Shown here piece after piece: positions 18,066-21,850 of a DNA stretch of 30,643 bases. The stretch lies in the NCBI GenBank assembly GCA_030141605.1, contig JAQGDQ010001661.1, forward strand, positions 1 through 30,643, written 5' to 3'. The position numbers and the translations under genes were made by a program. The notes beneath the pieces were generated by a model that ran no database searches, had not been told where the DNA came from, and saw only the letters and a list, made by a program, of their open reading frames with translations. The DNA comes from Tubiluchus corallicola. Lineage: Eukaryota; Animalia; Priapulida. Positions within the stretch are counted from its first letter, which is position 1. Every line of letters begins with the position of its first letter.

Positions 18066-21000
18066 GAGTTAGCAATACTTACCACCAATAGCTGAGTTCA
18101 ATGAGTTAACAGCAGTTACCATCAATAGTTGAGTTCAATGAGTTAACAACACTTACCATCAATAGCTGAGTTCAATGAGTTAACAACACTTACCATCAAT
18201 AGCTAAGTTCAATGAGTTAACAACACTTACCATCAATAGCTGAGTTCAATGAGTTAACAACACTTACCATCAATAGTTGAGTTCAACGAGTTAACAACAC
18301 TTACCATCAATAGTTGAGTTCAATGAGTTAACAACACTTAGCGTCAATAGCTGAGTTCAATGAGTTAACAACACTTACCATCAATAGCTGAGTTCAATGA
18401 GTTAACAGCACTTACCATCAATAGCTAAGTTCAATGAGTTAACAACACTTACCATCAATAGCTGAGTTCAATGAGTTAACAACACTTACCATCAATAGCT
18501 GAGTTCAATGAGTTAACAACACTTACCATCAATAGTTGAGTTCAATGAGTTAACAACACTTACCATCAATAGCTGAGTTCAATGAGTTAACAACAATTAC
18601 CATCAATAGCTGAGTTCAATGAGTTAACAACACTTACCATCAATAGCTGAGTTCAATGAATTAACAACACTTACCATCAATAGCTGAGTTCAATGAGTTA
18701 ACAACACTTACCATCAATAGCTGAGTTCAATGAATTAACAACACTTACCATAAATAGCTGAGTTCAATGATTTAACAACACTTACCATCAAAAGCTGGGT
18801 TCAATGAGTTAACAACACTTACCATCAATAGCTGAGTTCAATGAGTTAACAGCAGTTACCATCAATAGCTGAGTTCAATGAGTTAACAACACTTACCATC
18901 AATAGCTGAATTCAATGAATTAACAACACTTACCATCAATAGTTGAGTTTAATGAGTTAACAACACTTACCAACAATAGCTGGGTTCAATGAGTTAACAA
19001 CACTTACCATCAATAGTTGAGTTTAATGAGTTAACAACACTTACCATCAATAGTTGAGTTCAATGAGTTAACAACACTTACCATCAATAGTTGAGTTCAA
19101 TGAGTTAACAACACTTACCATGAATAGCTGAGTTCAATGAGCTAACAACACTTACCATCAATAGCTGAGTTCAATGAGTTAACAACGCTTACCATCAACA
19201 GTAGAGTTCAATGAGTTAACAACACTTACCATCAATAGCTGAGTTCAATGAGTTAACAACACTTACCATCAATAGTTGAGTTCAATGAGTTAACAACACT
19301 TACCATCTATAGCTGAGTTCAATGAGTTAACAACACTTACCATCAATAGCTGAGTTCAATGAGTTAACAGCAGTTACCATCAATAGCTGAGTTCAATGAG
19401 TTAACAACACTTACCATCAATAGTTGAGTTTAATGAGTTAACAGCAGTTACCATCAATAGCTGAGTTCAATGAGTTAACAACACTTACCATCAATAGCTG
19501 AGTTCAATGAGTTAACAACACTTACCATCAATAGCTGAGTTCAATGAGTTAACAACACTTACCATCAATAGCTGGGTTCAACGAGTTAACAACACTTACC
19601 ATCAATAGCTGAGTTCAATGAGTTAACAACACTTACCATCAATAGCTGAGTTCAATGAGCTAACAACACTTACCATCAATAGTTGAGTTCAATGAGTTAA
19701 CAACACTTACCATCAATAATTGAGTTCAATGAGTTAACAACACTTACCATCAATAGTTGAGTTCAATGAGTTAACAACAGTTACCATCAATAGTTGAGTT
19801 CAATGAGTTAACAACACTTACCATCAATAGCTGAGTTCAATGAATTAACAACACTTACCATCAATAGTTGAGTTTAATGAGTTAACAACACTTACCAACA
19901 ATAGCTGGGTTCAATGAGTTAACAACACTTACCAACAATAGCTGGGTTCAATGAGTTAACAACACTTACCATCAATAGTTGAGTTTAATGAGTTAACAAC
20001 ACTTACCATCAATAGTTGAGTTCAATGAGTTAACAACACTTACCACCAATAGTTGAGTTCAATGAGTTAACAACACTTACCACGAATAGCTGAGTTCAAT
20101 GAGCTAACAACACTTACCATCAATAGCTGGGTTCAACGAGTTAACAACACTTACCATCAATAGCTGAGTTCAATGAGTTAACAACACTTACCATCAATAG
20201 CTGAGTTCAATGAGCTAACAACACTTACCATCAATAGCTGAGTTCAATGAGTTAACAACACTTATCATCAATAGCTGAGTTCAATGAGTTAACAACACTT
20301 ACCATCAATAGTTGAGTTCAATGAGTTAACAACACTTATCATCAATAGTTGAGTTCAATGAGTTAACAACACTTACCATCTATAGCTGAGTTCAATGAGT
20401 TAACAACACTTACCATCAATAGCTGAGTTCAATGAGTTAACAGCAGTTACCATCAATAGCTGAGTTCAATGAGTTAACAACACTTACCATCAATAGTTGA
20501 GTTTAATGAGTTAACAGCAGTTACCATCAATAGCTGAGTTCAATGAGTTAACAACACTTACCATCAATAGCTGAGTTCAATGAGTTAACAACACTTACCA
20601 TCAATAGCTGAGTTCAATGAGTTAACAACACTTACCATCAATAGCTGAGTTCAATGAGTTAACAACACTTACCATCAATAGTTGAGTTCAATGAGTTAAC
20701 AACACTTACCATCAATAGCTGAGTTTAATGAGTTAACAACACTTACCATCAATAGTTGAGTTCAATGAGTTAACAACACTTACCATCAATAGTTGAGTTC
20801 AATGAGTTAACAACACTTACCATCAATAGTTGAGTTCAATGAGTTAACAACAGTTACCATCAATAGTTGAGTTCAATGAATTAACAACACTTACCATCAA
20901 TAGTTGAGTTCAATGAGTTAACAACACTTACCATGAATAGCTGAGTTCAATGAGTTAACAACACTTACCATCAATAGCTGAGTTCAATGAATTAACAACA

Positions 21001-21850
21001 CTTACCATAAATAGCTGAGTTCAATGAGTTAACAACACTTACCATCAATAGCTGAGTTCAATGAGTTAACAACACTTACCATCAATAGTTGAGTTCAATG
21101 AGTTAACAACACTTACCATCAATAGCTGAGTTCAATGAGTTAACAACACTTACCATCAATAGCTGAGTTCAATGAGTTAACAACACTTACCATCAATAGT
21201 TGAGTTTAATGAGTTAACAGCAGTTACCATGAATAGCTGAGTTCAATGAGTTAACAACACTTACCATCAATAGCTGAGTTCAATGAATTAACAACACTTA
21301 CCATCAATAGTTGAGTTTAATGAGTTAACAGCAGTTACCATCAATAGCTGAGTTCAATGAGTTAACAAAACACTTACCATCAATAGCTGAGTTCAATGAA
21401 TTAACAACACTTACCATCAATAGCTGAGTTCAATGAGTTAACAACACTTGCCATCAATAGCTGAGTTCAATGAGTTAACAGCAGTTACCATCAATAGCTG
21501 AGTTCAATGAGTTAACAACACTTATCATCAATAGCTGAGTTCAATGAGTTAACAACACTTACCATCAATAGTTGAGTTTAATGAGTTAACAACACTTATC
21601 ATCAATAGCTGGGTTCAATGAGTTAACAACACTTGCCATCAATAGCTGAGTTCAATGAGTTAACAGCAGTTACCATCAATAGCTGAGTTCAATGAGTTAA
21701 CAACACTTATCATCAATAGCTGGGTTCAATGAGTTAACAACACTTGCCATCAATAGCTGAGTTCAATGAGTTAACAACAGTTACCATCAATAGCTGAGTT
21801 CAATGAGTTAACAAAACACTTACCATCAATAGCTGAGTTCAATGAGTTAA
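18066..21850. repeat. 37-bp tandem array, about 100 copies, filling collagen intron 2
   Basis: Unit AACAACACTTACCATCAATAG(C/T)TGAGTTCAATGAGTT; period 37; no unique spacers. Confidence 0.97.

What the first reader, a model, noticed from the sequence alone, without database searches (positions are those of the whole stretch)
18066..21850. Intronic satellite built from about 100 potential microexon cassettes (AG-9 nt-GTAAGT) on the collagen sense strand
Seen: on the minus (transcribed) strand the 37-bp unit is GTAAGTgttgTTAACtcattgaactCAG|CTATTGATG|. Most copies carry a consensus 5' splice site, and the C-variant copies also carry a branch-like TTAAC and a CAG. The 9-nt cassette keeps frame in this phase-1 intron (Ala-Ile-Asp; variants give Val, His, Tyr or Gly, and I saw no stop). 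The first AG lies 45 nt into the intron from the real donor, which itself begins GTAAGTGT. The last copy (18091-18083) has a canonical CTAAC after its donor and sits 115 nt from exon 3. A common C/T variant destroys the AG, and others weaken the donor. Inference: a splice unit was tandemly amplified. It could act as a mutually exclusive microexon array (28-nt spacing is too short for adjacent splicing in most animals), as a stepwise splicing ladder, or as a U1 snRNP decoy array at a helix interruption. It could also be a neutral satellite that happens to contain these motifs.
Basis: partly seen in the sequence, partly recalled or inferred. Interest (0 to 1): 0.85.

Follow-up and report, generated by a model that had tools for sequence, protein, structure and literature searches.

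The report
Collagen intron repeat mimicking tiny exons
A 37-base stretch shaped like a 9-base exon between splice signals is repeated 102 times inside one intron of an animal collagen gene; it is likely an ordinary locally expanded repeat whose signals would mostly be ignored, as in known human and lancelet cases, and no RNA was available to test it.

Summary
The array is real: 102 copies of a 37-bp unit fill intron 2 of a four-exon collagen gene; 51 of 102 read YAG-9 nt-GTAAGT on the sense strand. A second DNA run holds its 3' edge. TAACTC direct repeats bound it, so it likely grew in place from a 169-nt intron. The copies show no upkeep as exons: the acceptor G is the most variable site (32 of 102 lack it), 49 of 62 AG..GT cassettes are identical, and the absence of stops means nothing (0 of 27 single changes can make one). 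The insert does not repair the Gly-X-Y register. It likely works like the F7 intron 7 repeat and lancelet mirages (extra sites mostly unused) but does not span a known exon boundary. Open: whether the seed was a real microexon (about 20%); the motif occurs in 0.5% of shuffled units and the copies next to the real donor are disabled. No RNA holder, ortholog or genome was available. This scan noted the same kind of array on other DNA (four earlier notes, unchecked).

The parts
23501..23819 (-). Predicted exon 1 (319 nt): start codon, hydrophobic signal-peptide-like stretch, Glu/Gly-rich acidic region
   Evidence: Translation; gene model gives one open 396-aa frame with GT-AG phase-1 introns. Not checked against RNA.
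21878..22432 (-). Predicted exon 2 (555 nt): (Gly-Pro-Ser)-rich collagen repeats, ends ...GDKGNT-G
   Evidence: (PF01391, E 2.6e-26)
21850..21877 (-). Unique start of intron 2 with the real donor CAG|GTAAGTGT (10 of 11 matches to the recalled U1-complement consensus)
18066..21850 (-). Minisatellite, 102 units of 37 bp (two spacings of 39), 35 unit types, 6.1% mean pairwise divergence; bounded by TAACTC direct repeats at 21849-21844 and 18071-18066
21824..21832 (-). First 9-nt cassette, intact (CAG before, GTAAGT after), 45 nt from the real donor; units 2-11 behind it are all non-intact
18083..18091 (-). Last 9-nt cassette, intact, donor 9 of 11 to the recalled consensus, 115 nt from exon 3
   Evidence: present in an unspliced contig of run X1 (record 8)
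17968..18065 (-). Unique end of intron 2 with branch-like TTAAC (A at -34), T-rich tract and the real acceptor TAG
17926..17967 (-). Predicted exon 3 (42 nt): (G)MGLQGQKGMKGEP(G)
16487..16761 (-). Predicted exon 4 (275 nt): basic non-collagen C-terminal region and stop
   Evidence: three differences in run X1 give no stop; no homolog found

Best explanation
This is a 102-copy, 37-bp intronic minisatellite in a predicted collagen gene that likely grew in place by slippage between two TAACTC hexamers of a once 169-nt intron, and whose repeated splice-like sites are predicted to be mostly ignored, so exon 2 would join exon 3 directly. Shown: the array, its edges, its motif counts and variant pattern. 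Inferred: (1) a first duplication at the 6-nt microhomology, then unequal exchange or conversion, which left block duplications and spread a few variants; (2) the real donor wins because it is the most upstream and best matching donor; (3) neighbouring cassettes cannot be joined because the 28-nt spacer puts the branch-like A 14 nt from the donor; (4) rare use of an internal site would give either a harmless in-frame 3-residue insert or a stop-containing transcript.
For: TAACTC at intron positions 29 and 3807, exactly 102 units plus two 2-nt insertions apart; collapsing to one unit needs no other indel and leaves 45+9+115 nt. Identical 7-unit block at units 34-40 and 63-69. The four AG/GT positions hold 42 of 124 variant cells against 14.2 expected (position permutation p 0.044) and 5 of 27 distinct alleles against 3.1 (p 0.23): no sign of protection. 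49 of 62 AG..GT cassettes are identical. Direct joining reads GNT-GM-GLQ; the cassette adds a further three-residue break and does not restore register. An acceptor read on to the next donor gives a 46-nt exon with a stop; read-through of the real donor also stops. Real donor 10 of 11, unit donors 8 of 11. Precedent: in F7 intron 7 only the most upstream of 5-9 identical donors is used (PMC1557585; abstract, Introduction, Discussion read); lancelet mirages with AG/GT signals did not disturb splicing by RT-PCR (PMC3087553; passages). The motif is not rare genome-wide: 0.49% of shuffled units, 5 in-frame matches outside any microsatellite in this window.
Against: No RNA evidence either way. Unit donors (8 of 11) match as well as the real donors of introns 1 and 3 (8 of 11), and the unit acceptor (7 T, 10 pyrimidines in 17 nt) is close to the real intron 3 acceptor (8 T, 10 pyrimidines) though below introns 1 and 2 (10 T, 12 pyrimidines). 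The reconstructed single-copy intron holds a frame-keeping cassette ending in G, seen in only 0.44% of shuffles even without asking for that G. Units 2-11 are all non-intact and hold 6 of the 9 GT-destroying copies, a hint that these sites can be seen by the spliceosome. Proximal pseudo-donors are used in CBS, 6-16 (PMC1557585, Introduction) and ABCA7 (PMC5954066, passages). The scanning rule was shown in mammalian cells only.
Confidence: 0.66

Rival explanations
1. The seed was a real 9-nt microexon (45-nt intron before, 115-nt intron after) that was swept into the duplication; one copy, likely the first or the last, is still spliced in and adds Ala-Ile-Asp (or Ala-Ile-Gly) at the helix break, while the other copies are redundant and decay.
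For: The single-copy reconstruction gives CAG-9 nt-G|GTAAGT with plausible flanking lengths; chance 0.44% in shuffles of that intron. The cassette keeps frame and ends in G, as this gene's phase-1 exons do. First and last copies are both intact; units 2-11 are not (permutation p 0.0007 for that position, 0.03 for any run of ten). Minimal intron size is about 40 nt in C. elegans (PMC4165533, passages), so 45 nt is not impossible.
Against: Units 2-11 are a three-unit motif repeated about three times, so only 3-4 independent changes and the p values overstate the case. Donor-to-branch distance in the 45-nt intron is 27-31 nt, below the roughly 50 nt needed in mammals, where 35 nt blocked assembly (PMC6692369, passage). 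The cassette turns the split Gly codon into Ala and lengthens the break. The finding was picked for its motif from a genome rich in minisatellites (40 rows in this window), so a 0.5% event is expected many times.
Confidence: 0.2
2. The array works as a bank of about 50 interchangeable microexons: neighbours exclude each other sterically, cassettes two or more units apart (65, 102 nt...) could be joined, and copy number would tune how often and how many three-residue inserts enter the collagen.
For: 51 intact in-frame cassettes; the 28-nt spacer is below the excisable size, as for the 30-nt spacer between mutually exclusive exons 9/10 of the C. elegans type IV collagen gene let-2 (PMC4165533, passages).
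Against: Almost no coding diversity (49 of 62 identical); acceptor G lost in 32 of 102 copies; 8 copies keep AG but lack GT and would trap transcripts into a stop. let-2 exons are 108 and 111 nt and 57% identical in protein, not 9 nt and near-identical.
Confidence: 0.06
3. The array is kept as a U1 snRNP decoy or as a substrate for nested splicing that shortens the intron, tuning collagen output without changing the protein.
For: 78 GTAAGT sites on the sense strand in 3.8 kb. ABCA7 repeat length changes splicing of flanking exons (PMC5954066, passages).
Against: Donor hexamer varies at least as freely as the rest (24 variant cells in 6 positions over 99 units, 0.040 per base against 0.020-0.028 elsewhere outside the acceptor). 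The intron would be only 169 nt without the array, so nothing needs shortening. No AG|GT ratchet point in the consensus unit. The 5' end of the array folds less stably than shuffles (z +2.46). An incidental effect on splicing is possible without being a function.
Confidence: 0.05
4. The unit belongs to a dispersed satellite or mobile-element family that inserted into the intron, and its orientation and motifs are accidental.
For: The genome is rich in repeats. No whole genome was held, so other loci could not be searched directly.
Against: No copy elsewhere in the window. In run X1 only 17 records lay on the 5' edge stretch, several of them collagen-like, against 3246 on a stretch holding a truly dispersed element; the one loose end shown in the unit region is more unit (6 of 13 loose ends shown). 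Edges fit a local duplication.
Confidence: 0.03

Closest known systems
Human F7 intron 7 37-bp VNTR and related donor-reiterating minisatellites (6-16, CBS intron 13, LMNB2, PDGF intron 4), PMC1557585 (abstract, Introduction, Discussion read)
   Same: Intronic minisatellite close to a real donor that repeats a consensus donor on the sense strand; same unit length as F7; real donor is the most upstream.
   Different: Here the array starts 28 nt inside the intron and carries no exon 2 sequence beyond a shared G|GTAAGTGT; each unit also has an acceptor-like site 9 nt before the donor; 102 copies against 5-25.
Amphioxus 'mirage' minisatellites (Adh3, BflGb6, BflGb9), PMC3087553 (passages of abstract and section 16; Adh3 paper not held)
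   Same: Tandem units with AG/GT signals in many but not all copies, concerted evolution with divergent edge units, in an invertebrate gene.
   Different: Mirages duplicate a boundary of a known exon; this unit matches neither exon 2 nor exon 3 and would be a mirage only if the 9-nt cassette is itself a real exon.
ABCA7 intron 18 VNTR, PMC5954066 (passages)
   Same: Kilobase-scale intronic repeat next to a donor with donor sites in its units.
   Different: ABCA7 has shown use of the second donor and length-linked exon skipping; nothing of the kind could be tested here.
Mutually exclusive exons 9/10 of C. elegans let-2 (type IV collagen alpha2), PMC4165533 (passages)
   Same: Collagen gene, frame-keeping cassettes, spacer too short to be excised (30 nt against 28 nt).
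   Different: Two diverged exons of 108 and 111 nt with read support, against about 50 near-identical 9-nt units with none.
Schistosoma micro-exon genes (MEG), PMC10526429 (search listing and start of abstract only)
   Same: Runs of very short exons.
   Different: MEG exons of 3-81 bp are separated by long introns (up to 5 kb) and make up the gene; here the spacers are 28 nt and the units are a homogenised repeat.

Membership tests
Intronic minisatellite (VNTR-like) | Head-to-tail array of 10-100 bp units, 0.5 to several kb | tested here: met
   37 bp x 102.2, 3.8 kb
Intronic minisatellite (VNTR-like) | Bounded by short direct repeats, with interspersed variant units and block duplications | tested here: met
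   TAACTC at both edges; 35 unit types, repeated 7-unit block; origin between short direct repeats is the model cited in PMC2820488 (passage)
Intronic minisatellite (VNTR-like) | Copy number varies among alleles | not testable with these tools
   Only short contigs of one other DNA run; a k=31 graph of the array breaks into 118 pieces, the high-copy ones 31-35 nt long, so depth gives no copy number
F7-type donor-reiterating VNTR | First unit spans the authentic exon-intron boundary | tested here: not met
   Array begins 28 nt into the intron; only 9 nt (G|GTAAGTGT, 7 of them plain consensus) are shared with the real donor region
F7-type donor-reiterating VNTR | Consensus donor repeated downstream of the real donor on the sense strand | tested here: met
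   GTAAGT in 78 of 102 units
F7-type donor-reiterating VNTR | Only the most upstream one to three donors are used | not testable with these tools
   No RNA holder listed
Amphioxus-type mirage | Unit contains part of an authentic exon and its boundary | tested here: inconclusive
   No match to exon 3 or the unmasked flanks beyond 9-nt words (exon 2 was mostly masked there, and its end was compared by eye); would be met only if the cassette is a real exon
Mutually exclusive exon cluster | Spacer too short for joining neighbours | tested here: met
   28 nt, branch-like A at +14, against about 40 nt minimum in C. elegans (PMC4165533)
Mutually exclusive exon cluster | Alternative exons diverged in coding sequence with conserved splice sites | tested here: not met
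   49 of 62 identical; acceptor G is the most variable position
Mutually exclusive exon cluster | Transcripts that include exactly one exon of the cluster | not testable with these tools
   No RNA holder listed
Recursive splicing (ratchet points) | Acceptor AG directly followed by a donor GT (recalled definition) | tested here: not met
   AG and GT are 9 nt apart in all 62 AG..GT units

The most novel reading that the evidence does not exclude
A real 9-nt collagen microexon was amplified with its splice sites into about 50 working copies at sub-spliceable spacing, so that repeat copy number and decay act as a heritable dial on how often, and how many, three-residue breaks are spliced into the triple helix.
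Probability: 0.06. Interest if true: 0.75.

Novelty: new member of a known kind. Interest (0 to 1): 0.22.

Why it matters
If the best reading holds, it is one more case of a spliceosome tolerating many decoy sites (78 consensus donors, 70 acceptor-like triplets in 3.8 kb) and a usable natural test of donor choice in an invertebrate; modest value. If the seed is a real microexon, it would show a whole microexon amplified a hundredfold by minisatellite turnover, a direct route to exon clusters of the kind proposed for mirages, and one junction-read count would settle it.

Tried and rejected
RNA test: no RNA holder listed for exon 4 and its 3' flank (2 runs listed, 0 holders on record as RNA). 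Run X1 behaves as DNA (unspliced contig across exon 3 and both flanking introns). Run X2 (RNA by guess) covered only the dispersed repeat in intron 3 and nothing at the 5' edge; no evidence either way. Whole-genome search: no genome held. Orthologs: exon 4 found 0 hits in 1.84 billion representatives, 0 of 44 candidates among longer proteins, no usable atlas hit; exon 2 returned 2415 generic collagen-like proteins among 7985 scored, and none of the 120 listed looked like an ortholog by name or length (sequences not inspected); the neighbouring gene found 0 of 73. The 28-nt core had 0 exact matches in metagenome contigs and no look-alike among earlier scan windows. Rfam: no family over the array. 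RNA structure hiding the sites: rejected for the 5' end, z +2.46. Absence of stops as evidence of coding: rejected (0 of 27 possible). F7-like origin from the exon 2 donor: less economical, since it needs a 17-nt net insertion in unit 1 and a partial last unit. Contig depth as copy number: rejected. Literature on intron sizes for the likely phylum: 9 listings, none useful.

Full report
Setting. The window is animal-type DNA rich in simple repeats (40 tandem-repeat rows). No whole genome is held. Earlier scan notes on the same genome call it priapulid-like; I did not test this. On the minus strand a four-exon model (23819-23501, 22432-21878, 17967-17926, 16761-16487) gives one open frame of 396 aa with three GT-AG phase-1 introns of 1068, 3910 and 1164 nt: a signal-peptide-like start, an acidic region, Gly-Pro-Ser collagen repeats (PF01391) and a basic tail with no homolog found. 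The model rests on sequence only.

The observation. Intron 2 holds 102 units of 37 bp. In sense orientation a unit reads donor-like GTAAGT, a TTAAC, an acceptor-like CAG 28 nt after the donor start, then 9 nt ending in G. YAG is present in 70 of 102 units, GTAAGT in 78, AG with any GT in 62, AG with GTAAGT in 51. The array is not an assembly artefact at its 3' edge: a contig of run X1 spans 17773-18128 unspliced with 1 difference in 356 letters, and X1 differs from the window at 9 of 976 letters over three unique contigs, so it is likely another individual or haplotype. X1 also holds standard units.

Origin. TAACTC stands at intron positions 29 and 3807, 102 units plus two 2-nt insertions apart. 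Removing 101 units leaves a 169-nt intron (45+9+115) with no other indel. This fits birth between short direct repeats, the model cited in PMC2820488 (passage). Later turnover shows as 35 unit types, 6.1% mean divergence and an identical 7-unit block at units 34-40 and 63-69. The unit has no other copy in the window. In X1, 17 records lay on the 5' edge stretch, several collagen-like, with summed depth at most 234 over the units, while the dispersed element in intron 3 drew most of 3246 records and depth up to 38,154. This speaks against a large diverged family but is weak: depth is no copy number, and a simulated graph of the array puts the high-copy pieces at 31-35 nt, likely too short to be laid.

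Is the motif more than chance? For one unit, yes: an in-frame YAG-3..27-GTAAGT appears in 0.49% of 200,000 shuffled units and 0.44% of 50,000 shuffles of the 169-nt intron (1.9% and 1.5% with GTRAG). The hundredfold repetition adds nothing, as all copies descend from one. The looser pattern occurs 13 times outside the array, 7 in frame, 5 of these outside microsatellites, and four other non-coding arrays tested in the window lack GTAAGT on both strands. In a genome with this density of minisatellites a 0.5% event is expected many times (inference), and the finding was selected for it.

Are the copies kept as exons? No sign of it. The acceptor G is the most variable of 37 positions. The four AG/GT positions carry 42 of 124 variant cells (14.2 expected; p 0.044 by position permutation) and 5 of 27 alleles (3.1 expected; p 0.23); cells are not independent, so the fair reading is no protection. 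No single change in the cassette can give a stop (0 of 27), and 2 of 9 observed cassette alleles are silent against 6 of 27 possible. 49 of 62 AG..GT cassettes are identical. Eight units keep AG but lack GT; reading on to the next donor gives a 46-nt exon with a stop. Direct joining gives GNT-GM-GLQ, a one-residue register defect that lies inside exon 3; the cassette gives GNT-AID-GM-GLQ and does not repair it.

Results against my reading. Unit donors match the recalled U1-complement consensus at 8 of 11, equal to the real donors of introns 1 and 3; the real intron 2 donor has 10. The unit acceptor (7 T and 10 pyrimidines in 17 nt) is near the real intron 3 acceptor (8 and 10) and below those of introns 1 and 2 (10 and 12). 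So the sites are mechanically plausible. Both edge cassettes are intact, while units 2-11 are all non-intact and hold 6 of 9 GT-destroying copies (p 0.0007 by permutation). That run is a three-unit motif repeated about three times, so it rests on 3-4 changes; it may be an edge effect, selection against rivals of the real donor, or protection of a real first cassette.

Mechanics. The 28-nt spacer has its branch-like A at +14. About 50 nt from donor to branch is needed in mammals and 35 nt blocked assembly (PMC6692369, passage); introns under about 40 nt are not excised in C. elegans (PMC4165533, passages). Neighbours therefore cannot be joined (inference). The 45-nt first intron is borderline (branch-like A at +27 or +31). 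Cassettes two or more units apart, and any cassette with the two real sites, could be joined in principle. A recursive ladder needs AG directly before GT (recalled), absent here.

Comparison. The closest working models are the F7 intron 7 37-bp repeat, where only the most upstream of 5-9 identical donors is used, with the next one or two used in 6-16 and CBS (PMC1557585; abstract, Introduction, Discussion), lancelet mirages, which carry AG/GT signals in many units without disturbing splicing (PMC3087553; passages), and the ABCA7 repeat, where one unit is sometimes retained (PMC5954066; passages). This array fails the F7 defining feature (first unit spanning the real boundary) and is a mirage only if the cassette is a real exon, so I file it as an intronic minisatellite that likely works like these. 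C. elegans let-2 shows steric mutual exclusion across 30 nt in a collagen gene, but with two long, diverged exons. I found no paper on a minisatellite whose unit is a whole microexon in three searches (1 listing, a human review, not read; 8 listings, none on this by title; 0); the library lacks most subscription papers, the Adh3 mirage paper was not held, and I did not read the alignment supplements of PMC3087553, which may show such units. Earlier notes of this scan describe similar arrays in other genomes, unchecked; they gave me the mirage and F7 leads, which I then read.

Verdict. Observation confirmed with the count halved to 51 intact cassettes. Most likely a locally born minisatellite with mostly silent splice-like sites (0.66); a real seed microexon with one used copy is the main rival (0.20); a working bank (0.06), decoy or nested-splicing role (0.05) and dispersed satellite (0.03) are unlikely. 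These odds are judgement. The decisive RNA count could not be made. Interest 0.22.

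Noticed in passing
window 16943-17802: High-copy dispersed element in collagen intron 3 (thousands of X1 contigs, loose ends at both borders); an 85% identical inverted partial copy lies at 6313-6739.
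   Followed up: partly
window 14004-14530 and 8619-9106: Two copies (91% identical over 489 nt) of an element with a 5S rRNA-like head (Rfam RF00001 at 14407-14530, 46.9 bits); looks like a 5S-derived SINE (label recalled).
   Followed up: partly
window 28965-29966: About 1-kb element with 25-nt terminal inverted repeats (96%) and a broken frame with an HTH_psq domain: likely a defective pogo-like DNA transposon.
   Followed up: partly
window 7659-11143 (+): Convergent neighbouring gene pieces with an fn3-like domain and DUF4808; no homolog found among longer proteins.
   Followed up: partly
window 1-198 and 7528-7725: 99% identical inverted duplicate of 198 nt or more (runs off the window end), overlapping the start of the fn3-like frame.
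   Followed up: no
window 24224-25927: Second minisatellite, 59 bp x 29, about 400 nt upstream of the collagen start; no GTAAGT on either strand.
   Followed up: partly
window 1817-2495 and 26804-27393: Two 87-91% identical copies of a dispersed repeat with internal 74-bp units; the frames resemble the tail of a non-LTR retrotransposon (recalled).
   Followed up: no
window 21900-21990: Run X1 contigs match exon 2 partly and run on into other Gly-Pro-Ser-like coding sequence, suggesting a family of related collagens whose introns could show the ancestral state.
   Followed up: no
window 16487-23819 (-): The collagen itself is unusual: acidic N-terminal region, about 60 mostly Gly-Pro-Ser triplets, basic C-terminal region without known homolog.
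   Followed up: partly
window 15663-15791 (-): A (TAAG)n microsatellite gives 12 GTAAGT sites by itself, a reminder that donor-like runs arise from simple repeats.
   Followed up: no
window 30120-30280 (-): Strong donor-like CAG|GTAAGT at 30126/30125 after a possible exon; may belong to an upstream gene or an untranslated exon.
   Followed up: no
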